From: a virus
Virus record (IMG/VR): IMGVR_UViG_3300045988_051638
Span: 1 to 18,971 of that record
Direction: 5' to 3' (one strand)
DNA length: 18,971 bases
Shown: in pieces, positions 1 through 18,971 of the stretch
How positions within the stretch are numbered: position 1 is the first letter of the stretch
Layout: every line of letters starts with the position of its first letter
Position numbers and translations under genes: made by a program
The notes under the pieces: model-generated
Told to the model about the DNA's origin: nothing
Seen by the model: the letters and a program-made list of their open reading frames with translations, nothing else
The model's database searches: none

Positions 1-111
1 GTGGGAGGGGTGTGGGTTTGTGTGAAGATTTTCCCTTGTGGTTTTTTTTATTTGTGTATTATTTTTTTTTGTTCTGTGCCTTCATTGACGCTTTGTTTTG
101 TTTACGCCTCT

Positions 112-140
112 ATTATATTTTTTTTATCCTAACCTGTCAA
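112..140 (-). promoter_or_regulatory. Outward-facing consensus sigma70/SigA-type promoter in the left ITR (TTGACA-N17-TATAAT)
   Basis: On the minus strand, TTGACA = complement of 135..140, the spacer is exactly 17 nt, and TATAAT = complement of 112..117. Transcription would run toward position 1. Confidence 0.7.
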
Positions 141-172
141 GTTTTTTTATTTTGGGCGTGTCGTTTTTTTTA

Positions 173-201
173 TTGACACTGTGTCAATGGTTGTATATAC
201 A
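173..201 (+). promoter_or_regulatory. Inward-facing promoter in the left ITR
   Basis: TTGACA at 173..178, 17-nt spacer, TATACA at 196..201 (TATATA at 194..199 is an alternative). The -35 lies in the palindrome TTGACACTGTGTCAA (173..187) and the -10 in the palindrome GTTGTATATACAAC (191..204). It drives the 356..613 gene. Confidence 0.6.
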
Positions 202-217
202 ACAATCTATGTCCGGT

Positions 218-245
218 TAAGTTACGGTAACGTAACCGTAGCTTA
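218..245 (+). promoter_or_regulatory. 28-nt imperfect palindrome / leader hairpin inside the ITR (mirror copy at 18727..18754)
   Basis: TAAGTTACGGT-AACGTA-ACCGTAGCTTA forms an 11-bp stem with one G.U pair (218..228 pairs with 235..245) and a 6-nt loop. It lies in the predicted 5' leader of both terminal genes. Confidence 0.5.
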
Positions 246-355
246 CTGCTCGGCCGGTAACTGTCTTTTAATATTTTGCTTTGTTTTGTTTTGGGCGTGT
301 CGTCTGTTTGTTTGTGTTATGCTGTAGTTATCGAGTTCAAGGGAAAGGAAATAAA

Positions 356-613
356 ATGATTAACATTGACGCCTATGTTATTGAGTTCGAGCCTGACAAT
401 TCTTATAAGGTCATTATCAAAGGTGTATATGCCGGAATTGTCTCCGATAATGGTACAGTTGATGATAGTGTTGTCACGTTCGAGTCAGCACTCGCTACGA
501 TTGTCGAATGTTTCTTGAGCTACGATTACGACTATGTTGAGACTGCTCGCGGACTATCTCGTAAGCGGCGCCCGTGCCGCAAGTACACTGTTTCGATTGA
601 TAACGGCGACTGA
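356..613 (+). CDS. Hypothetical early protein, 85 aa; the only + strand gene
   Basis: ATG at 356 with AAGGAA (345..350) 5 nt upstream; stop TGA at 611..613 is followed by a terminator hairpin. The ORF-track version starting at 281 uses TTG and translates T/G-rich ITR sequence, so I trimmed it. No recognisable motif. Confidence 0.6.
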   Translation: MINIDAYVIEFEPDNSYKVIIKGVYAGIVSDNGTVDDSVVTFESALATIVECFLSYDYDYVETARGLSRKRRPCRKYTVSIDNGD

Positions 614-4309: not shown

Positions 4310-5821
4310 TCATCCCATGTGAGTCGCAAAACTCAGGTAGACTTCCGTGTCGTTTGGAATCGCAGTGGTGGAGCCAATTTTGCAAGCTCTAATTTCATTG
4401 TCATACGACAAATACAACAACTTGTTAAGACTGTTTGGTATAAAGTAGTTTCCGCCGCCGTTGCGGGCGGCGGCTGGTACTTGGAAGATGCTTGCATACG
4501 CGCCGGCATTTCCTACCACTTTGCCTTGGATGTGGCATGTTACCATGTCTCCATCAACATGGAATTTCGAGTGCGTGATTTCGCCGTGGGCGTCCTGTCC
4601 GGCAACGTAACCGTCCCACGAATTTCGGACGGTGGCGCCATCCATCGCTTCACAAATCAGCCTAAGCAGCACGTCGTTACCTTCGTCGTTCGGGTGCACG
4701 TCGTCGCCGGAACTCCAATCACGGCTTCCATTAAGCCACTCCCAGCCATATGGGATAACCTGCACGCGGCGCATGTTGCAAGCGGCGATAATCCTGTCAC
4801 GCGCACTAAGGACGCCACTGTTATAGATGCGCGGGGGGGTGAAACCGCAGATAGTCGGAATGGTTTGAATTTTCGCATGCGGGAAATTGGCGCGCGCATA
4901 ATCCAGCAGCGATAATACTGCGTTGGTGAGCAGTGAATCGGTCATAGAACCGTCCGACACATGAGTTTTGTCATTGATGCCGCCGGCGATGAGGATGCGC
5001 GTTACGGCGTCTTTGTTGCCGGTGAAACCCTTAAGTTGCTGCGCAAACGTGGTTGGTCCGTTGAGATATCCGGCATCATTTTTCGCAAGATTGGTAACAG
5101 TTGCGCCCCTATACTCGCCCAGTCGGTTGGCCCACGATTTTGACGTGGCCGAAGCTCCTGTGCCGTATGAAATACTGTCACCAATTACGATGATGTTCTC
5201 ATGAGCCAGTTCGGTAAGGATATTGACTCGTTTCACCACGTCCGCAACGTCGGCGCTTGCTTTGTCCCACTTGGTTTTTGCGGCGGCGGCGTGGTCGGTG
5301 GAATCCGTGCCCAGCGCGGAAAGAATGGCGCTGTTGTCATCTGCCTTGCTGTTTGCGGTGTCCGCTTTGCCGCTTGCGGTGTTCGCCTTGTTGATCGCGG
5401 TGTCCGCTTTGCCGATCGCGGATGTGGCATCAGTGCTTGCTTTGTCCCACTTTGTTTTATTTGCCGTGGCGTGAGCGGTGGTGTCCGCACCTAATGCAGT
5501 GAGGATTGAGGTGTTCGCATTGGCTTTACCGGTTGCGGTGGCGGCGTCGGCCATCGCCTCGATGGCGTCCGCACTCGCCTTATTCCACTTGGTCTTAGCT
5601 GTGGTGGCGGCGTCTACGGTATTGTCGCCAAGCAGTGCTTTGGCTACTTCTTCGTCGTGTGTTTCACGCGACTCCACGGCTTCGATGCGATTAAGATGCG
5701 TTCCCAAAGTCGTATCGATAGTGCGCATGGAGCCGTTATAGCCGTCCCTCAGGTCGGCGGGGTCATTGTCGCCATACAGGTTCAAGCCGTAATTGTCGGT
5801 TTTGGTGTATACGGTAGCCAT
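4310..5821 (-). CDS. Tail appendage/fibre protein with an SGNH (GDSL) esterase domain
   Basis: It has an N-terminal adaptor motif (YGLNLYGDNDPADLRDGYNGSMRTIDTTL) and an Ala/Thr/Lys-rich stalk with three KTKW[DN]KAS repeats. SGNH blocks are VIGDSISYG (block I), AGGINDK (block III) and DDVHPN (block V). A roughly 110-aa C-terminal domain follows. RBS AAGGA is 7 nt upstream. Confidence 0.82.
   Translation of the reverse strand: MATVYTKTDNYGLNLYGDNDPADLRDGYNGSMRTIDTTLGTHLNRIEAVESRETHDEEVAKALLGDNTVDAATTAKTKWNKASADAIEAMADAATATGKANANTSILTALGADTTAHATANKTKWDKASTDATSAIGKADTAINKANTASGKADTANSKADDNSAILSALGTDSTDHAAAAKTKWDKASADVADVVKRVNILTELAHENIIVIGDSISYGTGASATSKSWANRLGEYRGATVTNLAKNDAGYLNGPTTFAQQLKGFTGNKDAVTRILIAGGINDKTHVSDGSMTDSLLTNAVLSLLDYARANFPHAKIQTIPTICGFTPPRIYNSGVLSARDRIIAACNMRRVQVIPYGWEWLNGSRDWSSGDDVHPNDEGNDVLLRLICEAMDGATVRNSWDGYVAGQDAHGEITHSKFHVDGDMVTCHIQGKVVGNAGAYASIFQVPAAARNGGGNYFIPNSLNKLLYLSYDNEIRACKIGSTTAIPNDTEVYLSFATHMG
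5207..5614 (-). repeat. Intragenic imperfect tandem repeats in the fibre stalk
   Basis: Protein repeats are TTAKTKWNKASADA, TAHATANKTKWDKASTDA and TDHAAAAKTKWDKASADV, plus ILTALGADTTAHA / ILSALGTDSTDHA. On the + strand the DNA shows recurring gctttgtcccacttgg-like segments near 5260, 5440 and 5580. Confidence 0.75.
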
Positions 5822-5824
5822 TTA

Positions 5825-6007
5825 TCAATCCTTCTCTCGTATTTGAGTTTGCAATTGGGTGAGCGCTTGGTCAATCATGCGCATGGCGCGGTTATATCCA
5901 TCACGCATGTCCATAGATGTCGCGTCATTGTAAAGAGGTAGTCCCCAATGTCGCGTCACGTCGTATGCGGCGGAGTCTACGGGCGTGGTCTGCTGACTGT
6001 TTGACAT
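5825..6007 (-). CDS. Stand-alone fibre-adaptor-domain protein, 60 aa (63 aa if the TTG at 6016 is used)
   Basis: It contains WGLPLYNDATSMDMRDGYNRAMRMIDQAL, paralogous to the N-termini of the flanking genes. ATG at 6007 is preceded by GGGGGA 9 nt upstream. The ORF-track start at 6016 is TTG and overlaps the upstream stop. Confidence 0.55.
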   Translation of the reverse strand: MSNSQQTTPVDSAAYDVTRHWGLPLYNDATSMDMRDGYNRAMRMIDQALTQLQTQIREKD

Positions 6008-6012
6008 AACCG

Positions 6013-6366
6013 TCAATCCCCCGAAGCAGTGGTGGAGACGAACGGCAGACCCTCCGCGGTGACTTTGGTGTTGTTGAGGTTTTTGACGGTATACTGTCCG
6101 CCACCGGTTGCGGGAACACGGTTGAGAAAATGGTTGAGTGCGGTGCCGAGCGCGTTGGCGTTCGCGGCGCTCAATCCGAGAGCGGAGGCGAATGTCTTCA
6201 ATCCTTCCGGAAGTGACTCCGGTGTCGGAATGGCGTCAATCTTATCCGACTGCGTTTTCAGCGTCGTGTCAAGAATGTCCATTGAGCGATTGTATTGCCC
6301 CTCAAGGTTAGGCGCGTCCGTCGCATCATACTTTTCAAGATTATAATTTAAGGTTTTGCTGGTCAT
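6013..6366 (-). CDS. Small fibre/appendage protein with the same N-terminal adaptor motif, 117 aa
   Basis: LNYNLEKYDATDAPNLEGQYNRSMDILDTTL at the N-terminus. RBS AGGAAGGA is 9 nt upstream of the ATG at 6366. Confidence 0.7.
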   Translation of the reverse strand: MTSKTLNYNLEKYDATDAPNLEGQYNRSMDILDTTLKTQSDKIDAIPTPESLPEGLKTFASALGLSAANANALGTALNHFLNRVPATGGGQYTVKNLNNTKVTAEGLPFVSTTASGD

Positions 6367-11117: not shown

Positions 11118-11134
11118 TTACCGGTTTGCTATTG

Positions 11135-12853
11135 TCACTGTGCGGTGACGGTGACTTCTGCCGTCCCAGTGGCTCCCGCAAACTTCACGGAAACATTGGC
11201 GGCGCCTGCCGTCTTACCTGTCAGCACGCCATTAGGTGTAACAGTCGCATTAGCGTCAACCGACCACATGGCGAGATTAGTCACGTCGGCGGTGTTGCCG
11301 TCCGTCTTGGTGGCAATCGCCTTAAGCGCGACATGGCCGTTCACCTTGACCGACTTTTCGCCCTGAATCTCAATAGACTCGATGGCTCCGGCTTTCCAAC
11401 CACCAAGCCAAGCGCCAACCACCGGCACGGACAGCGCGGCGGAAACCGTCTGGTCGATCTCAGGCGTGTCCGGATTGATGTAGGTTGCCTGAGCGGTGAC
11501 CTTAAGCGTTTCGGCGGTTTCATCAAGGCCGCAGCGCAGAATACCGTCGTTGTCGATAGTCGTAAACTGCGAGGTTGCGCCCTCGACCTTGTATTCGATG
11601 CCAACCGGCTGGAACGACGCCTCAGTCTTGTTTGCGCTGGAAATGACGGACTCGACCTGAACCAAGTCGCCACGCGACACGTTTTGAGGAGTAATGGCGG
11701 GCTGTCCATACTTGCGCACTCGCAGAGTGAATTCCGGCTTCGAGGTAGTGAGCGTATCCGGCAAAGTCACGGACTCGGCGGAACCCTCGCCAGTCCAAAA
11801 GAGGATAGCGTTAGCAAAAGGATTAGGGGTAATAGAACCACGATGCTTATAAAAGATGTTTCGCGTTCCGTCAATCGGGTTCACGGGGCTGTTCGTCGTT
11901 TCCAGCATTTCATCCCAACAGAAGAAGAAGTCTTCCGTGGTCAGCACAGCCTGCACCTTTCCAGCAGCGCCACCGATACCGAACATATCCTCCGGGATCG
12001 GAATAATCCTATACGGAATGTTCACTTTATCGATATTGAACGCGGCGGCGAGGGCTTCAACATTGAGTGCGGCGATAACCTGCGGAGTGGCGAAGAGGAT
12101 GGCTTCCGAATCACGCCAAGGGGTGACCCAGCCCATGGCATTATAGCGCGGCATAGCCGACATTGGGCTTGCCTTGAGTTCGTTGGCCGTCTGCTGAATG
12201 AGACGAAGAAGGCTCTTCGCGTCCGCTTCAGTCGAGTTGGCGGCGCCGACGTCGGAGGTATGCACGCGGTAGAAGCCACCCTTACGCGCGTATTCCGCGA
12301 AGGTCTGGGCTTTCATCAAGTACATATCGTTTCTATCCGAGAGGATAGGCGCGTTCATGATTTCAGCGATATAATCCGACATTCCGCTTTCGCCGTCGAA
12401 CGCCGTCAACAGCGCATCTTCCGGAATGGTCACGGGGTAATAATGGTCGAAAGTAAGGGGGTGGAAAACGCTTGCGGTTGGGAGCGAGTAGCGTCCGTAA
12501 ACGTCGTCTCCGAGGTATTCCTTGTTGAAATTGCGTGTGCGGGCCTTGACCAAGCCAACCGCCGCCTGCTCATAGGTGGAGCCGTAGCGCTTGAGCGTGC
12601 GAGGCGAGCCAATGAGTTTCAGCGGGTCATCCCAATCCGCGTGCTGGACGTAAAGGCCAATAAGACGCTGAATCAATACCCCCGTAAACTCGTCGCGCAA
12701 GTACGGAAAGTTGCGCATGGTGTCAACCGCGTTACGGATATTGCCTTGAGTCGCGGACGGAATGCGCACCTGAAACTGGGGAGAGGTGGCGGAACGGACG
12801 GCGTTGAAAATCTCAACGTCACCTTTACCTGCAAGTGGTCGAATATTGGACAT
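11135..12853 (-). CDS. Major capsid protein (phi29 gp8-like) with two C-terminal Big_2 Ig-like domains
   Basis: Position after the scaffold gene and size (572 aa). The C-terminal ...IEIQGEKSVKVNGHVALKAIATKTDGNTADVTNLAMWSVDANATVTPNGVLTGKTAGAANVSVKFAGATGTAEVTV is a textbook Big_2 pattern, preceded by a second copy. RBS AGGAGA is 8 nt upstream. Confidence 0.9.
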   Translation of the reverse strand: MSNIRPLAGKGDVEIFNAVRSATSPQFQVRIPSATQGNIRNAVDTMRNFPYLRDEFTGVLIQRLIGLYVQHADWDDPLKLIGSPRTLKRYGSTYEQAAVGLVKARTRNFNKEYLGDDVYGRYSLPTASVFHPLTFDHYYPVTIPEDALLTAFDGESGMSDYIAEIMNAPILSDRNDMYLMKAQTFAEYARKGGFYRVHTSDVGAANSTEADAKSLLRLIQQTANELKASPMSAMPRYNAMGWVTPWRDSEAILFATPQVIAALNVEALAAAFNIDKVNIPYRIIPIPEDMFGIGGAAGKVQAVLTTEDFFFCWDEMLETTNSPVNPIDGTRNIFYKHRGSITPNPFANAILFWTGEGSAESVTLPDTLTTSKPEFTLRVRKYGQPAITPQNVSRGDLVQVESVISSANKTEASFQPVGIEYKVEGATSQFTTIDNDGILRCGLDETAETLKVTAQATYINPDTPEIDQTVSAALSVPVVGAWLGGWKAGAIESIEIQGEKSVKVNGHVALKAIATKTDGNTADVTNLAMWSVDANATVTPNGVLTGKTAGAANVSVKFAGATGTAEVTVTAQ

Positions 12854-12874
12854 TGTGTATATCTCCTAACTATT

Positions 12875-13156
12875 TTAGTCGAACAAATCTTCGATTGACT
12901 CGCCGTCGCCGTCACCGTCGCCGTCGTTGTCGGTTGGGGCGGGGTCATTGTAGCCGAGCGTGTCCAGCATGGCCTTCAATGCGGCCAATTCCTTTTCAAG
13001 CGTGTCAAGTCGAGCGCTTACGTCCGGTTCGGACGGTTCCGGTTCCGGCTCCGGTTCTTTCGGCTTAACCTCGTCATCTACGGTTTCCGTCTGCTGTTCC
13101 TCTTCGGTCGGCGGCGGGGTGGTATTTTCTTCGCCGTCATTGTCTGGGTCTGCCAT
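12875..13156 (-). CDS. Scaffolding protein (phi29 gp7-like), 93 aa, highly acidic
   Basis: Small acidic protein with a short helical/coiled segment (LDTLEKELAALKAMLDTL), immediately upstream of the capsid gene. RBS AAGGAG is present. Confidence 0.75.
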   Translation of the reverse strand: MADPDNDGEENTTPPPTEEEQQTETVDDEVKPKEPEPEPEPSEPDVSARLDTLEKELAALKAMLDTLGYNDPAPTDNDGDGDGDGESIEDLFD

Positions 13157-13387: not shown

Positions 13388-14839
13388 TCATAGCATGACC
13401 ATTGTGCCGTAATCATCCATGACTTGCGCGCCATGCCGGAATTGCTCGTACGGTATAGGTTCCGTAAACATGTTTCCGGCCATGCAGACGTCCACTTCAC
13501 CGTCATCCCGCCACCCCTCATAACGGTTCATTCCGAGGATAGTCAGTTTTTCGTATCGTGCGGCGATTTTCCATTTTCCGAGTTCGGTTGGATGTATGTC
13601 ACATGATTTCACCGGTTCCCAACCGCTCAGGATGCAACCATCCGTGTTCGCATACAAGACTCGGTCAGAGTTGGCGTGGCACACGTCCATAAGCTTGCGG
13701 CGCGCATACGCGTTGACCCATATCGGCACGGGCAAGTAGTCGGTTTTCAAATTCAATTCTTCACGCTGTGCGACATCCCAGTCCAAGGTGATGCCGTCTT
13801 TTGAGGTTGGCAGCATGACGGCGCCTTTTGGCAGACTCGCCATTTTACCTACGAGCGCGTTCATAATCAGTTTCGCCATTTGCCGTTTCTCGCCGGTCGA
13901 TTGTTGTTTCAGCTCCCCCCATTCGTCAATGAACGAACGGAAGAAACCTTTTGAGCGGCGGAATTTCCACCCCCTTACATGCTTGTAGACGCTCACATCA
14001 TAGTTTTTGTAGAGCAGTTCTTGATCAATGTCGGTCAAGACGCGCGTGACGTATCCACGAGTTGAGGTAAGGCGGTTGAGTCCGTACGCGCTGCGGTTGT
14101 CGAGCAGGAAGGGGTATCCGTTCGGTTTGAGTTCCGCGCGAAACGTAAGTTCGTCGCAATGCAACGGCATATTGTCATCTTGGATGTATTTGCCTTCGTA
14201 TGGTTCCGGTTCGCTCCACGGCAGCCACTCGTCTCGTAATATGGATGGATACATGGAATTGCAGTCAACGTCGACGGCCTTGCCATACGTCCCTTCCTTG
14301 ACCAGCATGAAACCGCCTATATAGGCGTCATGCAATGATTTTTTATCCTCCGGTTCGAGCTGTGGAAATTTGTCGTAATACCATTTCCACTCGCCGGACG
14401 CGAACGCTTCCATACTTGCACCGCCCGCCGTGATTTTACACAGCCCCCGATTGTCGTATTCTCGCAGGATGTTGAGTAGTTGCGTGTCGGTCATGGTAAG
14501 CTTACAGTTTTCCCGCAGAAGATTCGATATATCAAAAAATCGTGCGGAATTTTCGCGGTCGATGCGTACAGTAAAGCTGAAAAATTTGCCTTTTTTCGAC
14601 ACTATCGCATCCCAACTCAGGTTAGAGTTATGTTCGTTACGGGGGAGGGAGTGTACGACGTGTGCCATGAACGGGCCTAAAACGTCTGGGTCGGTCACGT
14701 AGACGGCGAGTTTGCCGCCTGACATGATGGACGCCAAAAGGCGATTGGGTGCGGTGATATTACGCAGGACGGTGCCGTCCGTAAAACGTATGACGTCATC
14801 TGAGCACCATAATCCCACTTTTTTGTCTTGCACGGCCAT
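13388..14839 (-). CDS. Protein-primed family-B DNA polymerase (phi29 gp2-like), 483 aa
   Basis: Motif A VDCNSMYPS, pre-motif AYIGGF, motif B KLIMNALVGK, motif C YANTDG. LPWSEPEPYEGKYIQDDNMPLHCD aligns with recalled phi29 LPYGEPIVFEGKYVWDEDYPLHIQ. LGKWKIA and VDVCMAGN align with LGYWAHE and FSVKCAGM. Confidence 0.93.
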   Translation of the reverse strand: MAVQDKKVGLWCSDDVIRFTDGTVLRNITAPNRLLASIMSGGKLAVYVTDPDVLGPFMAHVVHSLPRNEHNSNLSWDAIVSKKGKFFSFTVRIDRENSARFFDISNLLRENCKLTMTDTQLLNILREYDNRGLCKITAGGASMEAFASGEWKWYYDKFPQLEPEDKKSLHDAYIGGFMLVKEGTYGKAVDVDCNSMYPSILRDEWLPWSEPEPYEGKYIQDDNMPLHCDELTFRAELKPNGYPFLLDNRSAYGLNRLTSTRGYVTRVLTDIDQELLYKNYDVSVYKHVRGWKFRRSKGFFRSFIDEWGELKQQSTGEKRQMAKLIMNALVGKMASLPKGAVMLPTSKDGITLDWDVAQREELNLKTDYLPVPIWVNAYARRKLMDVCHANSDRVLYANTDGCILSGWEPVKSCDIHPTELGKWKIAARYEKLTILGMNRYEGWRDDGEVDVCMAGNMFTEPIPYEQFRHGAQVMDDYGTMVML

Positions 14840-14866: not shown

Positions 14867-15829
14867 CTACTTTCCCAGTGCGCCCGCTTCCGACAACCAC
14901 CGGTCAAACTGCCGCCGTGAACGCTGATAACCCTTGCTGTTATCGCGGAATATCGACGTGAAGCCGTGCCGAACTGGATCGTATACCGTCCAGTCGAACA
15001 CGATACGAGGTGCGTCCGTCTGTTCGATAAAAGCCCTCTTTTGCGCGGCGGACAATTGACGGAATCGTTTCAATCGTTTCGAGCCAAGCGTGGTAGCTAG
15101 GATTTTCTCGAAAACTTCATAACGTCCGCGACTCATGTACGACGGCCATTCGTGCTCACCATACAAGTCTTTACCCTGTTTGCCTGTCCCCCGCTTTTTG
15201 GACGGTTTGCGTTTCTGCTCCGTGCGCAATCCCAGTATTTCGGCCACGTCGTGTATTTGTTCACGCAATTCATTGCGGTGTCCGCTCTCCAATTGGGAGC
15301 GAACGAACGCTTCATCGCTCAGCACGTTCGTCATTTGCAGAAAATCGGTGAGTTTTGATGGAATGATCTGATTGCGTCCGAAACTTTCTCCGGTGGTTCC
15401 GGTGATTTCGGCAACGCGCTGGTCATACACGCTTTTTGCGGGCATGGCTTGAGATTTGTTCCATTCGTTGATTTTCCGGCGGGCCGCGTTGATTTTCCGC
15501 TGCTGCTGTCTGAGCAGTTTGCGACGTTTCGCCACCGGTTCCGCCTGAATTTGCGCGTCCGAGATTGGCGTGCGGTTGGCGAACATGATATCTTTTTTCG
15601 TCGGTTTCTCAACTTCGGCGGCATGATACGGTGTTGCTTTCGCTTCCGCTACAGCCTGTTTCTTCTGCCGTTCCCATTCCTTGCCCAGCGTTTTTGCAAT
15701 GTTGACTAGTTGTTTGTCGGCGGTTTTGGCGAGATTCGAGTGCGAATAAGTACCAAGCTGTTTGATATTGCGGGCGGCACGTGCTTGCGCGGCCTGACGT
15801 GCCTTGACATGCTTTTGCTTCCGAGACAT
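14867..15829 (-). CDS. Putative terminal protein (phi29 gp3 analogue), 320 aa, very basic
   Basis: Immediately upstream of the polymerase as in phi29-like phages, Lys/Arg-rich, and the genome has ITRs. Assignment is by synteny and composition only. RBS AAGGA is 9 nt upstream. Confidence 0.7.
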   Translation of the reverse strand: MSRKQKHVKARQAAQARAARNIKQLGTYSHSNLAKTADKQLVNIAKTLGKEWERQKKQAVAEAKATPYHAAEVEKPTKKDIMFANRTPISDAQIQAEPVAKRRKLLRQQQRKINAARRKINEWNKSQAMPAKSVYDQRVAEITGTTGESFGRNQIIPSKLTDFLQMTNVLSDEAFVRSQLESGHRNELREQIHDVAEILGLRTEQKRKPSKKRGTGKQGKDLYGEHEWPSYMSRGRYEVFEKILATTLGSKRLKRFRQLSAAQKRAFIEQTDAPRIVFDWTVYDPVRHGFTSIFRDNSKGYQRSRRQFDRWLSEAGALGK

Positions 15830-15912: not shown

Positions 15913-16347
15913 TCACTTGGCTTCCTCATCCACCGGCTCAATGCTGAAAAACTTGAAACCACGGCGAGAGCGGCGTTCAACCACCTTGATGCACAGCGGT
16001 TCCGCCCAAGTATTCGGCGTGCCAAAAATGCCGAACATTGTATTCAATCCCGCGGCGAGAGTCGGAGAAGTGGCCGCGTACGCCTTGTTATCATCGGTCA
16101 CGATAATGACGCGCACCGTGTTGGAGATTTCTCCCGTCTGATCGTCCGTCACCTGCACCGCCTGAGCGACGGCGTTCGTCATGTTCAGCGGCTCGTTAAG
16201 GTGTTCGTCAAGCTTTTCCGCGTTCTGCAATGCGCTGTAGAGCTTGATTTTGCCTTCACGAGTCGAGGTGTCGATGAAGTGCTGGACGGTGCCGAGTTCG
16301 GTGTTTTCGGTATTGAATGCGACGAGTGCGGTATTATTGTTTTCCAT
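15913..16347 (-). CDS. Putative single-stranded DNA-binding protein (phi29 gp5 position), 144 aa
   Basis: Position between the p6-like gene and the terminal protein. Small acidic-tailed protein (…IEPVDEEAK) whose overall pattern resembles phage-type SSBs as I recall them. Mostly a synteny call. RBS GGGAAGG is 7 nt upstream. Confidence 0.5.
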   Translation of the reverse strand: MENNNTALVAFNTENTELGTVQHFIDTSTREGKIKLYSALQNAEKLDEHLNEPLNMTNAVAQAVQVTDDQTGEISNTVRVIIVTDDNKAYAATSPTLAAGLNTMFGIFGTPNTWAEPLCIKVVERRSRRGFKFFSIEPVDEEAK

Positions 16348-16403: not shown

Positions 16404-16412
16404 TTTATATCA
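16404..16412 (-). promoter_or_regulatory. Candidate extended -10 element TGATATAAA upstream of the SSB-TP-polymerase block
   Basis: The complement of 16404..16412 reads TGATATAAA in the context GTGTGATATAAA. Its TGA is also the stop codon of the upstream 104-aa gene. Confidence 0.35.
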
Positions 16413-16724
16413 CACGTCTTCATTATTTTCAACGTCGGCGTGTCGTTTTGTATGCTCCTCAGGGTTCCACTTCTGCGGTTCCCCAAAGGTTGCATGCTTG
16501 AAGAAAGTTTCCTCGTTCATGGAGACTTTTTGCGAAAAAATGTTAATGGAACGCGGAATGAAATTCGGAAACAATTTCTTCGCACGAATCGAATACGCGC
16601 GTGCATCCTTCAAGCGTCCGTCGATAACGTGTTCAGCCTCCATAAAATCGCCATCCACCAATTCCATCCCCTTTAGCACAGCATAAACACGTGTGCGGAA
16701 AATTTCGATTTTCGTTCGTGCCAT
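16410..16724 (-). CDS. Putative histone-like dsDNA-binding protein (phi29 p6-like), 104 aa
   Basis: Same length and gene position as phi29 p6. RTRVYAVLKGMELVDGDFMEAEHV and VSMNEETFFKHAT resemble recalled p6 KTTVNVAKMVMVDGEVQVEQL and YELPVEKFLEVAT. It has an acidic C-terminal tail. RBS AGGAAAGG is present. Confidence 0.5.
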   Translation of the reverse strand: MARTKIEIFRTRVYAVLKGMELVDGDFMEAEHVIDGRLKDARAYSIRAKKLFPNFIPRSINIFSQKVSMNEETFFKHATFGEPQKWNPEEHTKRHADVENNEDV

Positions 16725-16730
16725 GAGATT

Positions 16731-17249
16731 CTACCTTTCCTGTTCAAAGATTTTTTGCAATCCTATGTCATTATATCGTGTCGTGTCCAGTCTGTCAAAA
16801 TTTTTAAACACTGCGATAATCAAGTTTTGCGTTTGCGGGTTGTCGAAAATCGTGCAACAGTCATACGACGTGCCGCCCTTGACCGCACACACCGCACACC
16901 ATGCAATCAAGTTAGGCGGATTGACGGAACCATCCAAATATTCGACGTCGAACGTGCGGGATAGGGCGGCGGCGAGTCCGTCCCACATAGTTAGACTGCC
17001 GCAAATTTGCGACACCATGACAACCGCTTGCGAAAACCACTCACTAGGCGCATCCCGCCACAGTTCGCACAGCATGTTCACGGCACGGCAGCACGTTTCA
17101 AAATCGCCAAAACCCATGTCGAAACGTTTCAAGTTCAGCTCACGTTTATGGCCTTTCATGGCGCGGGCAATACGTTTGCTCTCCATAATAGCGTCATCGA
17201 AGTCACGCATGCGGTAGATAGGCCGCCTGTCATCACCGCGCCTAAACAT
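16731..17249 (-). CDS. Hypothetical early protein, 172 aa, Cys-rich
   Basis: ATG at 17249 overlaps the upstream stop by 8 nt, with GAGGA 8 nt upstream. Tightly packed in the early operon. No motif recognised. Confidence 0.7.
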   Translation of the reverse strand: MFRRGDDRRPIYRMRDFDDAIMESKRIARAMKGHKRELNLKRFDMGFGDFETCCRAVNMLCELWRDAPSEWFSQAVVMVSQICGSLTMWDGLAAALSRTFDVEYLDGSVNPPNLIAWCAVCAVKGGTSYDCCTIFDNPQTQNLIIAVFKNFDRLDTTRYNDIGLQKIFEQER

Positions 17250-17418
17250 AATACCGTTCCTCGACGCGGAAGTACGCTATGTTTTCCACGTGCGAGCGGA
17301 TAGCCGCCCACCGTTTAATCAAATCTGCCGCATCCTTATACGAGGGCGCGTAACCGACTTCGATAGGCGGTTTGCGTGCGTCCCTCAAGTATGCGAGCGC
17401 GACGAAAGTGCTGTACAT
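17242..17418 (-). CDS. Hypothetical early protein, 58 aa (C-terminal part of the 102-aa ORF-track entry)
   Basis: ATG at 17418 lies 1 nt after the TAG of the upstream ORF, with GGAG 8 nt upstream. The N-terminal extension to 17550 uses rarer codons (ATA, AGA, GGA, CTA, CGA) and leaves a 74-nt gap. Confidence 0.5.
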   Translation of the reverse strand: MYSTFVALAYLRDARKPPIEVGYAPSYKDAADLIKRWAAIRSHVENIAYFRVEERYYV

Positions 17419-17419
17419 G

Positions 17420-17623
17420 CTAAAACTCCAATTCGTCCACGAAGTCACTGTCACCATATATCCACATGGCCACCCACAGTTGCCGGTTAGGGCAGCGTTT
17501 CGGCGGATTAGTGGCGCTCCTCTTATGTTGTCGTCCGGCCCAAAACGCACGCAAACGCCAATAACTGTCAGCGTCCGGGCACGTGCCGCACGTCCACGAA
17601 TGTATCCAACCGCGAAAATACAT
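17420..17623 (-). CDS. Hypothetical early protein, 67 aa, Trp-rich
   Basis: ATG at 17623 lies 1 nt after the TAG of the 81-aa gene, with AGGGA 5 nt upstream. This is the same stop-N-ATG spacing seen at neighbouring junctions. It competes with the 5' part of ORF 17242..17550. Confidence 0.45.
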   Translation of the reverse strand: MYFRGWIHSWTCGTCPDADSYWRLRAFWAGRQHKRSATNPPKRCPNRQLWVAMWIYGDSDFVDELEF

Positions 17624-17624
17624 A

Positions 17625-17870
17625 CTAATCCCTATCCTTAAGCGGTTTGGACGCAATATCCATAGCGTCCAACACCATAGCACGCATTTCATTTGCCTTA
17701 GTAGGGTCATAACCGCACCGTGCGACCCCCTCAGTCAAACCTACCGGCGTATGGAACTCCACGTTATATGTCAGATAAAACAACTGTTGATGCGTGCAGT
17801 ATTCGATACGCACGTCACCCCCCCTGTGAGGGCTGTTGAATTTTCCGACACGAATATCACCATAACGCAT
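17625..17870 (-). CDS. Hypothetical early protein, 81 aa
   Basis: ATG at 17870 with AAAGGAAG 6 nt upstream. No motif recognised. Confidence 0.65.
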   Translation of the reverse strand: MRYGDIRVGKFNSPHRGGDVRIEYCTHQQLFYLTYNVEFHTPVGLTEGVARCGYDPTKANEMRAMVLDAMDIASKPLKDRD

Positions 17871-17888
17871 TTTATTCTTCCTTTCTAA

Positions 17889-18053
17889 TCACATTCCACA
17901 AATAAAAACCAACACAATGGACACACTCACAGCAAGCATGACCAAAAAACAGAAAACGTCACGCGCGTTGCGCGGGAGTTCGCAAAACACTGTAGCCGCC
18001 ATCGTGAGGAACAGCACGGAAAGAATGCAGACGGCAACAATCATGCCAACCAT
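17889..18053 (-). CDS. Small membrane protein, 54 aa, two predicted TM helices
   Basis: Internal ATG at 18053 is preceded by GGTGGTGA 7 nt upstream. MVGMIVAVCILSVLFLTMAATVF and VFCFLVMLAVSVSIVLVFICGM are hydrophobic. The longer 80-aa form lacks an RBS. Confidence 0.5.
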   Translation of the reverse strand: MVGMIVAVCILSVLFLTMAATVFCELPRNARDVFCFLVMLAVSVSIVLVFICGM

Positions 18054-18085
18054 TATAACATCACCACCTATCAGATTAAAAACAC

Positions 18086-18154
18086 TCAAACCATGCCAAA
18101 AACGACGACAACACCAATAATGCACGCGCAAATAACAAGCACCGAAAAAAACAT
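18086..18154 (-). CDS. Possible hydrophobic micropeptide, 22 aa (up to 33 aa if it starts at 18187)
   Basis: MFFSVLVICACIIGVVVVFGMV. Its ATG lies 1 nt after the TGA of the 77-aa gene, with GTGGTG 7 nt upstream. Very short, so uncertain. Confidence 0.3.
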   Translation of the reverse strand: MFFSVLVICACIIGVVVVFGMV

Positions 18155-18155
18155 A

Positions 18156-18389
18156 TCAATACACCACATTATAATAATAAGCCACATATCCGGCCCCAAC
18201 GTTGCGCTGGGAAGAAAATTGGTTAACATAAGCGTGAAGCATGACTCCCTCAATCTGGAGGACCCTACGCAAAGCCTCATAAGAGTCTTTGGCGTGGACT
18301 ACATGGTAATTACGAGTCGGCGTTTCCACTTGGAGATATTCGGTACAAGGCCAGTCAACAACGATATATGTATGCACTCTCACAATCAT
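18156..18389 (-). CDS. Hypothetical early protein, 77 aa
   Basis: ATGA overlap with the upstream gene; GGAAGGGAG precedes the start. No motif recognised. Confidence 0.6.
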   Translation of the reverse strand: MIVRVHTYIVVDWPCTEYLQVETPTRNYHVVHAKDSYEALRRVLQIEGVMLHAYVNQFSSQRNVGAGYVAYYYNVVY

Positions 18390-18616
18390 TCTCCCTTCCT
18401 ATTTGCGCGATAATAGTCAACGGAACCGTCCGTTCGCCAATACTTCAGGTTTGACAATTCCACGCCAGTCGCCCCACGCAGCTCCCTACGCATACGCTCC
18501 TTCACGCCCTTGGCGGTGACGGCGTTGCCCATCGAAAAATAGTGCGCGGTATTGTAGTCAGTAAATGCCACTGTGATGGACTTGTGCCACCAATCAAACG
18601 AAACAACGGTATTCAT
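18386..18616 (-). CDS. Hypothetical first early protein, 76 aa; its promoter, leader, RBS and ATG lie in the right ITR
   Basis: The ATG at 18616 is the mirror of the ATG at 356, with the same AAGGAA RBS. The ORF-track extension to 18691 is TTG-initiated ITR sequence and was trimmed. Confidence 0.6.
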   Translation of the reverse strand: MNTVVSFDWWHKSITVAFTDYNTAHYFSMGNAVTAKGVKERMRRELRGATGVELSNLKYWRTDGSVDYYRANRKGE

Positions 18617-18770
18617 TTTATTTCCTTTCCCTTGAACTCGATAACTACAGCATAACACAAACAAACAGACGACACGCCCAAAACAAAACAAAGCAAAATA
18701 TTAAAAGACAGTTACCGGCCGAGCAGTAAGCTACGGTTACGTTACCGTAACTTAACCGGACATAGATTGT

Positions 18771-18799
18771 TGTATATACAACCATTGACACAGTGTCAA
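18771..18799 (-). promoter_or_regulatory. Inward-facing promoter in the right ITR (probable early promoter for the leftward early operon)
   Basis: Mirror image of 173..201. TTGACA = complement of 18794..18799 and TATACA = complement of 18771..18776. It lies upstream of the first minus-strand gene, which starts at 18616. Confidence 0.6.
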
Positions 18800-18831
18800 T
18801 AAAAAAAACGACACGCCCAAAATAAAAAAAC

Positions 18832-18860
18832 TTGACAGGTTAGGATAAAAAAAATATAAT
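18832..18860 (+). promoter_or_regulatory. Outward-facing consensus promoter in the right ITR (TTGACA-N17-TATAAT)
   Basis: TTGACA at 18832..18837, 17-nt spacer ggttaggataaaaaaaa, TATAAT at 18855..18860. It points toward the right terminus, about 105 nt away. Confidence 0.7.
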
Positions 18861-18971
18861 AGAGGCGTAAACAAAACAAAGCGTCAATGAAGGCACAGAA
18901 CAAAAAAAAATAATACACAAATAAAAAAAACCACAAGGGAAAATCTTCACACAAACCCACACCCCTCCCAC

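What the first reader, a model, noticed from the sequence alone, without database searches (positions are those of the whole stretch)
13388..14839. Protein-primed PolB with an apparently degenerate proofreading site and non-canonical motifs B, C and KxY
The 483-aa polymerase aligns convincingly with recalled phi29 gp2 over the palm and TPR regions, but it is about 90 aa shorter. Using flanking conserved blocks as anchors (DLYFHNLKFDGAF vs KLAVYVTDPDVLGPF; IYDSLKKL vs FFDISNLL; GLDRMTAGSDSLKGF vs GLCKITAGGASMEAF; AYRGGF vs AYIGGF), the exonuclease residues map as follows:
- ExoI D12-x-E14 becomes S-D-D-V (the Glu is lost).
- ExoII N62/D66 becomes D50/L54.
- ExoIII Y165-x3-D169 becomes L-T-M-T-D (the Tyr is lost).

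Other motifs also deviate:
- Motif B Kx3NSxYG reads KLIMNALVG.
- Motif C YCDTDS reads YANTDG (first Asp to Asn; verified at 13637..13654).
- The KxY lysine aligns with Asn.

As the only replicase of a complete genome it is presumably active. It may therefore be a naturally exonuclease-deficient, possibly low-fidelity, protein-primed polymerase. That would be unusual for this family and biotechnologically interesting.
Basis: partly seen in the sequence, partly recalled or inferred. Interest (0 to 1): 0.66.

Follow-up and report, generated by a model that had tools for sequence, protein, structure and literature searches.

The report
Phage replicase without a proofreading site
This complete Bifidobacterium phage genome copies itself with a phi29-type, protein-primed DNA polymerase whose proofreading domain has shrunk to a conserved catalytically dead stub, so the phage probably replicates without error correction.

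Summary
ORF 13388-14839 (-) encodes a 483-aa protein-primed family B polymerase (Pfam DNA_pol_B_2; phi29 DNAP E=2.5e-42; AF2 pLDDT 92, TM 0.82-0.84 to phi29 structures).

Motifs B (KLIMNALVG), C (YANTDG) and KxY (NRY) read as reported and are fixed in 118-120 of 120 close homologues.

The N-terminal 128 aa are a reduced remnant of the phi29 exonuclease fold. No D-x-E exists in any register. D66 is replaced by a hydrophobic residue. A ~35-aa deletion removes K143 and Y165.

This is not a one-off. The window's phage has 368-bp terminal repeats and is closest to cultured Bifidobacterium phages BP1 and BD811P1-3. It belongs to a monophyletic "short" polymerase clade (454-496 aa, 17 sequences: the window plus 16 representative clusters at 50% identity) with no conserved acidic residue in the N-domain. 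Full-length relatives keep E14/N62/D66/K143/Y165/D169 invariant and D12 nearly so.

The remnant is under purifying selection (dN/dS 0.07-0.11), so it probably serves as a scaffold (template tunnel, terminal-protein contact).

About 14 other phage representative clusters also show decayed exo motifs. Loss of the exo domain is published for eukaryotic mavirus and polinton-like viruses; I found no report for phi29-like phages. Exonuclease loss and low fidelity remain biochemically untested.

The parts
13388..14839 (-). [quoted passage not shown]
   Evidence: ORF and translation; Pfam PF03175 95.5 bits; phi29 DNAP E=2.5e-42; AF2 pLDDT 92.2 and Foldseek TMq 0.82-0.84 to 1xhx/2pyj
14456..14839 (-). 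aa 1-128: vestigial exonuclease domain. It keeps a reduced phi29 exo fold (b1 6-11, b2 17-19, helix 31-41, b4 43-48, helix 51-64, b5-b7 75-103, helix 118-130) but has no DEDDy catalytic set.
   Evidence: hhalign aa 29-128 to phi29 42-136; N-domain AF2 pLDDT 86.7. In the Foldseek search the nine phi29 DNAP chains are the only hits with E below 0.01 (E 1e-3 to 8e-3, TMq 0.52-0.66; the next hit has E 0.13). Only N106 is invariant across the clade. dN/dS 0.07-0.11.
14669..14701 (-). aa 47-57 YVTDPDVLGPF: remnant of ExoII (phi29 YFHNLKFDGAF). hhalign puts D50 at N62; V53 (or L54) lies at D66.
   Evidence: hhalign and mafft-profile; residue spectrum in 120 homologues
14480..14506 (-). aa 112-120 CKLTMTDTQ: junction of the ~35-aa deletion that removes the Kx2hxA lysine (K143) and the ExoIII tyrosine (Y165). 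D118 may be the remnant of D169.
   Evidence: MAFFT, hhalign, mafft-profile and hmmalign
14246..14272 (-). Motif A, aa 190-198 DVDCNSMYP (catalytic D192, steric-gate Y197)
   Evidence: Invariant in 120 homologues and across the clade
13946..14230 (-). TPR1 insertion (aa ~204-298, matching phi29 261-358), a hallmark of protein-primed PolBs
   Evidence: Continuous alignment with phi29
13844..13873 (-). Motif B, aa 323-332 KLIMNALVGK (phi29 KLMLNSLYGK). Y390 is replaced by V330.
   Evidence: V330 in 118 of 120 homologues; non-Tyr in all 17 short-clade sequences
13757..13828 (-). TPR2 insertion (aa ~338-361, matching phi29 398-420), the processivity and strand-displacement subdomain
   Evidence: Alignment with phi29
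13637..13654 (-). Motif C, aa 396-401 YANTDG (phi29 YCDTDS). The first Asp is Asn; catalytic D400 is kept.
   Evidence: N398 in 120 of 120 close homologues; D/N varies across the short clade while T399 and D400 are invariant
13520..13528 (-). KxY motif, aa 438-440 NRY (phi29 K498-T-Y500). The Lys is replaced by Asn and an Arg is adjacent.
14867..15829 (-). 320-aa protein in the terminal-protein position (between SSB and pol): the presumed protein primer
   Evidence: Synteny SSB / ~300-340-aa protein / short pol in the window, BP1, BadAztec1, L009 and L010; homologous to the BadAztec1 counterpart, E=2e-16. No similarity to Av-1 TP, Pfam or PDB, so this is an inference.
15913..16347 (-). phi29-type single-stranded DNA-binding protein
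   Evidence: Pfam Phi29_Phage_SSB 1.7e-16; PHROG 6243
1..368 (.). Left inverted terminal repeat (replication origin of a linear, protein-primed genome)
   Evidence: 368 nt, 99% complementary to 18604-18971
18604..18971 (.). Right inverted terminal repeat

Best explanation
The gene encodes the sole, active replicase of a complete phi29-like Bifidobacterium phage.

Shown by sequence and model: it is a protein-primed family B polymerase with an intact palm (D192, Y197, D400), fingers (K311, K323, N327) and TPR1 and TPR2. Its 3'-5' exonuclease domain has been reduced from ~189 to ~128 aa and has lost the two-metal DEDDy site. There is no D-x-E. D66 is replaced by Val/Leu. K143 and Y165 are deleted. 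At most two carboxylates (D14, D118) survive.

Inferred:
- The enzyme has little or no proofreading activity.
- The remnant domain is kept because it is a structural part of the machine. In phi29 the exo domain closes the downstream-template tunnel with TPR2, palm and fingers, which gives strand displacement without a helicase. It also contacts the terminal protein through R96; Lys82/Lys83 occupy that position here.
- Replication proceeds from the 368-bp ITRs by priming on the 320-aa protein encoded just upstream. It then continues by processive strand-displacement synthesis with SSB.
- Fidelity rests on nucleotide selection alone.
- The fixed changes Y390V, K498N(R) and D456N are lineage-specific retunings of an active site that no longer has to partition the primer between the pol and exo sites.
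For: Polymerase identity: Pfam 95.5 bits; phi29 E=2.5e-42; hhalign probability 100%, E=6e-93 over aa 29-474; AF2 pLDDT 92.2, pTM 0.90; Foldseek TMq 0.82-0.84 to phi29 DNAP.

Loss of the exo site:
- In 24 full-length pPolBs F13, E14, H61, N62, D66, K143, Y165 and D169 are invariant, and D12 is present in at least 90%.
- In 22 short-clade sequences the only invariant N-domain residue is N106.
- The hmmalign survey of ~137 representatives shows none of the exo residues in any short-clade member.
- The ~35-aa deletion appears in four independent alignments.

The remnant is a folded, selected domain:
- N-domain AF2 pLDDT 86.7; the nine phi29 DNAP chains are the only Foldseek hits with E below 0.01.
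- Conservation 0.866 against 0.895 for the pol domain in 120 homologues.
- dN/dS 0.07-0.11.

Active enzyme in a viable phage:
- Complete genome with 368-bp ITRs.
- phi29-type SSB, packaging ATPase, connector, capsid and tail knob; no second polymerase, helicase or exonuclease detected.
- 75-86% identical polymerases in cultured lytic phages BP1 and BD811P1-3.
- Motifs A, B and C and NRY are invariant or nearly so in 120 homologues.

Structural roles of the exo domain, and D249/D458 as the catalytic carboxylates: PMC4974454.
Against: - No biochemistry: exonuclease activity, fidelity, strand displacement and protein priming are all untested.
- I could not obtain model coordinates. The spatial positions of D14, D50/D52 and D118, which sit near the ends of the elements that carry ExoI, II and III, were therefore not checked. 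D14 and D118 are conserved in 118-119 of 120 close homologues, so a weak non-canonical site is not excluded.
- The register of aa 1-28 differs between alignment methods.
- The terminal protein is assigned by position only.
- In phi29, mutations of exo-site residues are reported to impair strand displacement (my recollection of Soengas 1992 and Esteban 1994, not retrieved here). The scaffold argument therefore assumes the function has been re-optimised.
Confidence: 0.8

Rival explanations
1. The N-domain still proofreads through a non-canonical site built from residues conserved in the close family (D14, D50/D52, D118, perhaps E69, D77, D94 or D103).
For: D14 (118/120) and D118 (119/120) are strongly conserved. 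They lie after b1 and at the start of the last helix, where ExoI and ExoIII carboxylates would sit. D50/D52 lie at the start of the helix that carries ExoII.
Against: None of these is conserved across the short clade, and four members lack the first strand altogether. Position 50 is Asn in 66 of 120 homologues, and position 52 is Arg or Gly in 20 of 120. The general-base Tyr and K143 are deleted. In phi29, loss of any single DEDD carboxylate is reported to cut activity by orders of magnitude (my own knowledge, not retrieved here).
Confidence: 0.07
2. The polymerase itself is exo-dead, but proofreading is supplied in trans by a host DnaQ-like exonuclease or by one of the unannotated early phage proteins. 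The phage's mutation rate would then be normal.
For: Nine early ORFs (16410-18691, and 12875-13156) have no detectable family. Trans proofreading exists in bacterial Pol III (epsilon subunit; established knowledge).
Against: No early protein matches an exonuclease in Pfam, PHROGs or PDB; the only one large enough (172 aa, 16731-17249) has no hit. In phi29 the TPR2/thumb arch encircles the growing duplex at the polymerisation site and acts as an internal clamp (PMC4974454), which should make access by an external exonuclease to the primer terminus awkward (inference).
Confidence: 0.1
3. The ORF is a decaying or inactive polymerase (D456N, Y390V, truncated thumb), and the genome is replicated by another enzyme.
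For: Three conserved polymerase-site positions deviate, and the thumb is about 13-17 aa shorter than in phi29.
Against: The catalytic D192 and D400, together with K323, N327, G331 and Y197, are invariant. The deviating residues are themselves fixed in 118-120 of 120 homologues. Pol-domain dN/dS is about 0.05. No other polymerase is encoded. ITRs and phi29-type SSB imply protein-primed replication, which a host polymerase is not expected to carry out (inference). Relatives are cultured lytic phages. A PolB group with the first motif C Asp substituted is already described (PMC7544198).
Confidence: 0.02
4. Assembly or annotation artefact: the ExoI-bearing N-terminus is missing because of a wrong start or a frameshift.
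For: GenBank records of BP1 and BD811P2 start the CDS at different internal codons.
Against: A stop codon lies upstream in frame, the TP gene ends 27 nt before the ATG, and a Shine-Dalgarno sequence precedes it. M1 and the 483-aa length recur in ~118 of 120 independent clusters, and the short length recurs in all 16 diverged representative clusters.
Confidence: 0.01

Closest known systems
Bacillus phage phi29 DNA polymerase (gp2; PDB 1XHX, 2PYJ, 2EX3)
   Same: Protein-primed family B polymerase with palm, fingers, TPR1, TPR2 and thumb. Same gene neighbourhood (SSB, TP-position gene, pol) in a ~19-kb linear phage genome with terminal repeats. Foldseek TMq 0.82-0.84.
   Different: 92 aa shorter. 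The exo domain is cut from ~189 to ~128 aa with no DEDDy site, K143 and Y165 deleted. Y390 becomes V, D456 becomes N, K498 becomes N (R439 adjacent). The thumb C-terminus is shorter. ITRs are 368 bp, against 6 bp in phi29 (PMC4974454).
Polymerases of Bifidobacterium phages BP1 (PQ571273), BD811P1-3 (OP172658-60) and BadAztec/BadAargau (NC_048858, NC_048859)
   Same: Same short-polymerase clade: 85.6% (BP1), ~75% (BD811P) and ~31% (BadAztec) identity, with the same synteny. All cultured members infect Bifidobacterium.
   Different: These are annotated only as 'DNA polymerase' or 'hypothetical protein', with inconsistent start codons. In the papers I could search I found no mention of the missing exonuclease site. 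BadAztec keeps DTDS in motif C.
Mavirus-type virophage pPolB and PLV/transpoviron pPolB-S1H fusions (PNAS 2024, PMC11161782)
   Same: Protein-primed PolBs that have lost most or all of the exonuclease domain. The authors likewise predict lower fidelity.
   Different: Those are eukaryotic Preplasmiviricota enzymes with TP-vOTU N-terminal domains, and the loss is accompanied by gain of a helicase (S3H or S1H). Here a folded remnant is retained, no helicase is detected in the genome, and TP is a separate gene.
Exonuclease-inactivated cellular PolBs (Pol alpha, Pol zeta, archaeal PolB2) and the phage divPolA1
   Same: Replicative-family polymerases that keep a degenerate exonuclease fold as a structural module (PMC4104785, listed but not read; divPolA1 in PMC11348598; Pol alpha/zeta from established knowledge).
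   Different: They are RNA/DNA-primed or family A enzymes. They work inside multi-protein replisomes or alongside a second, proofreading polymerase. Here the enzyme is the only replicase.

Membership tests
[quoted passage not shown] | Profile match above the curated threshold | tested here: met
   95.5 bits against a cut-off of 25.8, aa 136-397; PHROG 1907 E=4.5e-42
[quoted passage not shown] | Motif A DxNSxYP with catalytic Asp and steric-gate Tyr | tested here: met
   D192, N194, S195, Y197, P198; invariant in 120 homologues
[quoted passage not shown] | Motif B Kx3NSxYG: Lys, Asn, Gly | tested here: met
   K323, N327, G331
[quoted passage not shown] | Motif B tyrosine (phi29 Y390) | tested here: not met
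   V330. It is V/I/T/A in all 17 short-clade sequences, and also non-Tyr in ~10% of exo-intact representatives.
[quoted passage not shown] | Motif C YxDTD: second (catalytic) Asp | tested here: met
   T399-D400 invariant
[quoted passage not shown] | Motif C first Asp (phi29 D456) | tested here: not met
   N398 in 120 of 120 close homologues; D or N across the short clade
[quoted passage not shown] | TPR1 and TPR2 insertions specific to protein-primed PolBs | tested here: met
   aa ~204-298 and ~338-361 align without large gaps to phi29 261-358 and 398-420; global fold TMq 0.82-0.84
[quoted passage not shown] | KxY motif | tested here: inconclusive
   Y440 is kept. The Lys position is N438, with R439 adjacent. 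The Lys position is non-Lys in 16 of the 17 short-clade sequences (often Arg) and unaligned in P0142.
[quoted passage not shown] | ExoI (DxE), ExoII (Nx2-3FD), ExoIII (Yx3D) and Kx2hxA | tested here: not met
   No DxE in any register; V53/L54 at D66; K143 and Y165 deleted
[quoted passage not shown] | Genome context: linear genome with ITRs and a terminal-protein gene next to pol | tested here: inconclusive
   ITRs of 368 bp are present. The 320-aa upstream protein is TP only by position and by conservation within the clade.
[quoted passage not shown] | Covalent priming on a protein hydroxyl | not testable with these tools
   Needs a TP-dNMP initiation assay
DnaQ-like DEDDy 3'-5' exonuclease | Four metal-binding carboxylates plus a general-base Tyr | tested here: not met
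   At most D14 and D118 remain in the close family, and none is conserved in the clade
DnaQ-like DEDDy 3'-5' exonuclease | RNase H-like alpha/beta fold | tested here: inconclusive
   The N-domain model matches the phi29 exo domain (E 1e-3 to 8e-3, TMq 0.52-0.66), but other DEDD exonucleases only at E~1 (WRN, rank 25)
phi29-like podophages (Salasmaviridae and relatives) | phi29-type capsid, connector, gp16 packaging ATPase, tail knob and SSB | tested here: met
   Pfam Phi29_MCP 8e-57, Phage_connector 3.4e-40, Podovirus_Gp16 1.5e-44, phi29_gp9_C 5.4e-8, Phi29_Phage_SSB 1.7e-16

The most novel reading that the evidence does not exclude
A whole lineage of abundant gut dsDNA phages (Bifidobacterium podophages), plus several other phi29-like lineages that lost the site independently, replicate with a helicase-free, proofreading-free protein-primed polymerase. 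They would therefore run at mutation rates one to two orders of magnitude above other dsDNA phages. Recurrent loss would mean that dispensing with proofreading is selected in ~19-kb genomes, for speed, genome economy or evolvability against CRISPR and receptor variation. The enzyme would be a naturally optimised exo-minus, strand-displacing polymerase.
Probability: 0.3. Interest if true: 0.75.

Novelty: new variant of a known kind. Interest (0 to 1): 0.57.

Why it matters
phi29 DNA polymerase is the textbook self-contained replicase, combining processivity, strand displacement and proofreading in one chain. Its exonuclease site is treated as a family hallmark.

A cultured-phage lineage that has dismantled that site yet kept the domain shell gives three things:
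- A natural experiment on what the exo domain does besides editing (template tunnel, terminal-protein docking).
- A testable case of a dsDNA virus replicating without proofreading, which bears on mutation-rate limits for small DNA genomes and on the fast diversification of gut phages.
- A source of naturally exo-minus, strand-displacing polymerases. Sequencing-by-synthesis and modified-nucleotide applications currently rely on engineered phi29 exo-minus mutants (PMC10661337 abstract).

The finding also shows that exo decay is recurrent among phage pPolBs. Annotation pipelines calling these proteins simply 'DNA polymerase' miss this.

Tried and rejected
It was rerun without that row.
- Model coordinates are not returned by the tools. 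A residue-level superposition on the phi29 metal sites could not be done, so I relied on four sequence/profile alignments, which disagree for aa 1-28.
- Terminal-protein identity: no Pfam, PHROG or PDB match and no BLAST similarity to Av-1 TP. The only homology is to the BadAztec1 counterpart.
- Search for a trans-acting exonuclease or helicase among all other ORFs found nothing.
- Literature searches for a prior description of exo-deficient phi29-like phage polymerases found none. The library lacks most subscription journals, so absence is not proof.
- The 590-aa ORF antisense to the capsid gene is not open in relatives and was rejected as chance.
- The idea that only point substitutions inactivate the site was rejected in favour of truncation plus substitution.
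- The idea that this is a singular oddity was rejected: it is clade-wide and recurrent.
Full report
**What is there**

The minus-strand ORF 13388-14839 encodes 483 aa. Its ATG is preceded by AAGGGAAG. The upstream gene ends 27 nt before it, and an in-frame stop lies upstream, so the protein cannot be longer at the N-terminus.

Pfam assigns DNA_pol_B_2 (95.5 bits; cut-off 25.8), but only over aa 136-397. phmmer against PDB finds phi29 DNA polymerase at E=2.5e-42, aligning aa 129-438 with phi29 181-498. The first 128 residues have no pairwise sequence match.

**The genome**

The window is a complete linear genome. Bases 1-368 and 18604-18971 are 99% complementary inverted terminal repeats.

It encodes phi29-type capsid, connector, gp16 packaging ATPase, tail knob, holin, lysins and a phi29-type SSB. 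No second polymerase, helicase or exonuclease is detected.

A 320-aa protein sits between SSB and pol, where phi29-like phages encode the terminal protein. It matches only its BadAztec1 counterpart (E=2e-16). It does not match Av-1 TP, Pfam or PDB, so its role is inferred from position.

The closest cultured relatives are Bifidobacterium phages BP1 (85.6% polymerase identity) and BD811P1-3 (~75%). Honeybee-gut Bifidobacterium phages BadAztec and BadAargau are ~31% identical and also have a short polymerase (469 aa in BadAztec1). BP1 is described as an isolated podovirus; its paper does not discuss the polymerase.

**Checking the motif claims**

- Motif C is YANTDG at exactly 13637-13654.
- Motif B is KLIMNALVGK.
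- KxY reads N438-R439-Y440.

In 120 close homologues from metagenomes (73-89% identity), N398, N438, R439, Y440, D192, Y197, K323, N327, G331 and D400 are present in 120 of 120, and V330 in 118 of 120. These are fixed features of a constrained enzyme, not decay.

According to the phi29 review, D249 and D458 supply the catalytic carboxylates (PMC4974454). Both are conserved here as D192 and D400. The first Asp of motif C is naturally replaced in another PolB group (PolB_SITDG; PMC7544198). It flips between D and N within the clade described below.

**The exonuclease domain**

I built two alignments.

- In 24 full-length pPolBs (phi29, Av-1, Reje, CH17P1 and 20 representatives of 540-630 aa), F13, E14, H61, N62, D66, K143, Y165 and D169 are invariant. 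D12 is present in at least 90%.
- In 22 sequences of a "short" clade (the window, four close homologues, 16 representatives of 454-496 aa sharing 26-36% identity with the window, and BadAztec1), the only invariant residue in the N-terminal 128 positions is N106. No acidic residue is conserved.

Profile-profile comparison of the two alignments gives probability 100% and E=6e-93 over window aa 29-474 against phi29 42-553. Its mapping is:

| phi29 | Window |
|---|---|
| Y59 | Y47 |
| N62 | D50 |
| D66 | V53 |
| ~137-170 (including K143 and Y165) | gap of ~35 residues |

D118 can be placed on D169, as hmmalign does, or before the gap, as hhalign does.

For aa 1-28 the methods disagree:
- Global hhalign and MAFFT L-INS-i align QDKKVGLW with phi29 EDCRVWAY and delete the ExoI strand.
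- mafft-profile aligns D14/D15 with D12/E14.

No register produces D-x-E. Residue 15 is Asn or Gly in 110 of 120 homologues.

It is off by one residue at D66, and it understates the damage: the Kx2hxA lysine is gone too.

**Structure**

AlphaFold2 on a 60-sequence alignment gives pLDDT 92.2 and pTM 0.90. Foldseek against PDB returns phi29 DNAP chains as the top nine hits (TMq 0.80-0.84); archaeal PolBs are far behind.

The N-domain modelled alone (pLDDT 86.7) has the element order b1-b2-b3-helix-b4-helix-b5-b6-b7-helix. From my recollection of the phi29 structure, this is the order of the phi29 exo domain minus its helical ExoIII region.

In the N-domain Foldseek search the nine phi29 DNAP chains are the only hits with E below 0.01 (E 1e-3 to 8e-3, TMq 0.52-0.66). 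The next hit has E=0.13, and WRN exonuclease appears only at E~1. The domain is therefore a cut-down descendant of the exo fold, not a new domain.

**Is the remnant functional?**

It is nearly as conserved as the polymerase domain (mean major-residue frequency 0.866 against 0.895). It evolves under purifying selection: dN/dS is 0.07-0.11, against ~0.05 for the pol domain, in window/BP1/BD811P2 comparisons. Synonymous sites are near saturation in those comparisons.

In phi29 the exo domain, together with TPR2, palm and fingers, forms the narrow downstream-template tunnel that underlies helicase-independent strand displacement. Exo-domain R96 contacts the terminal protein's priming domain (PMC4974454). 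The window has Lys82/Lys83 at that position, and TPR1 and TPR2 are intact.

My reading is that editing was lost and the scaffold kept. This is an inference.

**How widespread**

An exhaustive HMMER search of 1.84 billion representatives found 1,654 homologues. Among the best ~137 of adequate length, 17 sequences form the short clade (the window plus 16 representatives). This clade is monophyletic in a rough neighbour-joining tree of the pol domain. All 17 lack the exo residues and have a non-Tyr at Y390. None has Lys at K498: 16 carry another residue there, and P0142 is unaligned at that position.

Two diverged members sit in the same SSB / ~300-aa protein / pol / capsid synteny on ~10-20-kb contigs.

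About 14 further representatives of 510-590 aa also have decayed ExoI-III. They fall in at least five or six separate places in the tree.

P0250, the NJ sister of the short clade, keeps ExoI and ExoII but lacks the K143/Y165 region. This hints that the ExoIII deletion came first, although the tree is crude.

Non-Tyr at Y390 is enriched among the long exo-degenerate proteins: 7 of 13 against ~10 of 100, Fisher p=5e-4, not corrected for phylogeny.

**Comparison with what is known**

Loss of the exonuclease domain in protein-primed PolBs has been published for mavirus-type virophages and for PLV/transpoviron pPolB-helicase fusions. Lower fidelity was predicted there, and the loss is linked to the gain of a helicase (PMC11161782).

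Cellular Pol alpha, Pol zeta and archaeal PolB2, and the phage divPolA1, are other polymerases with dead exo folds (established knowledge).

I found no report of this for phi29-like tailed phages, including the 2024 review of phi29-like phages and the BP1 paper. The searchable library omits most subscription journals.

The present case differs from the eukaryotic ones in three ways: a folded remnant is retained under selection, no helicase is detected in the genome, and the enzyme is the sole replicase of phages that can be grown.

**Verdict**

This is a new variant of a known kind: a phi29-type protein-primed polymerase with a clade-wide, structurally retained but catalytically dismantled proofreading domain and a retuned polymerase site.

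What remains unproven is the biochemistry (no exonuclease, fidelity, strand displacement), the phage's actual mutation rate, and whether proofreading is supplied in trans. Interest is moderate to high: it is directly testable with cultured phages and has practical appeal, but it is neither unique nor conceptually unprecedented.

Noticed in passing
window 1-368 and 18604-18971: The 368-bp ITRs are far longer than phi29's 6 bp. Each contains A/T-rich promoter-like tracts, a Shine-Dalgarno sequence (AAGGGAAAGGAA) and the ATG of an inward-facing gene (ATG at 356 on +, ATG at 18616 on -). The two terminal genes therefore share promoter, RBS and start codon and diverge only after 'ATGA'.
   Followed up: partly
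window 152-166, 290-304 (mirror copies in the right ITR) and 16426-16449: The motif TTTTGGGCGTGTCGT occurs twice in each ITR, with a variant upstream of the early gene at 16410-16724. It could be an operator, a promoter element or an origin-binding site.
   Followed up: no
L001 (BP1, PQ571273) 4813-6264; L007 (BD811P2, OP172659) 1501-2952: The GenBank CDS of the BP1 and BD811P2 polymerases start at internal codons (471 and 445 aa). The upstream start, giving 483 aa, is conserved in 118 of 120 homologues and has an SD in the window. The deposited annotations probably truncate the vestigial exo domain.
   Followed up: partly
proteins P0188/P0249, P0247, P0172, P0200/P0241/P0232/P0246/P0257/P0252/P0202, P0234, P0167/P0211; P0250: Other pPolB lineages of nearly full length (510-590 aa) also have decayed ExoI-III motifs, at several separate places in an NJ tree. 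P0250, sister to the short clade, keeps ExoI and ExoII but lacks the K143/Y165 region and may be an intermediate.
   Followed up: partly
window 13844-13873 (motif B) and the representatives: Loss of the motif B tyrosine (phi29 Y390) is enriched in exo-degenerate polymerases: all 17 short-clade sequences and 7 of 13 long degenerate ones, against ~10 of 100 exo-intact. Fisher p=5e-4, not corrected for phylogeny.
   Followed up: partly
window 13388-13480 (C-terminus of pol): The thumb is truncated. The protein ends ...DDYGTMVML, lacking about 13 residues of the phi29 C-terminal hairpin (PVQVPGGVVLVDDTFTIK). It also lacks the phi29-specific insertion after KxY. The short C-terminus is shared by the whole short clade.
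   Followed up: no
window 11126-12898 (+): A 590-aa ORF runs antisense to the whole capsid gene (11135-12853, -). The equivalent frame is interrupted in BP1, L009 and L010 (longest open stretches 294, 233 and 354 aa), so it is a chance open frame.
   Followed up: yes
window 4310-5821 (-): A 503-aa tail-region protein carries a GDSL esterase/lipase domain (Pfam 3.8e-16). The corresponding BP1 gene (gp6) is annotated as pectate-lyase-3-like, and the BP1 paper notes divergence of gp5/gp6. This is likely a swapped receptor-degrading module.
   Followed up: no
window 1-20: The genome end reads GTGGGAGGGGTGTGGG. It has no simple terminal reiteration such as the one the phi29 review says sliding-back initiation requires. 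The true ends may be missing a few bases, or the initiation register may differ.
   Followed up: no
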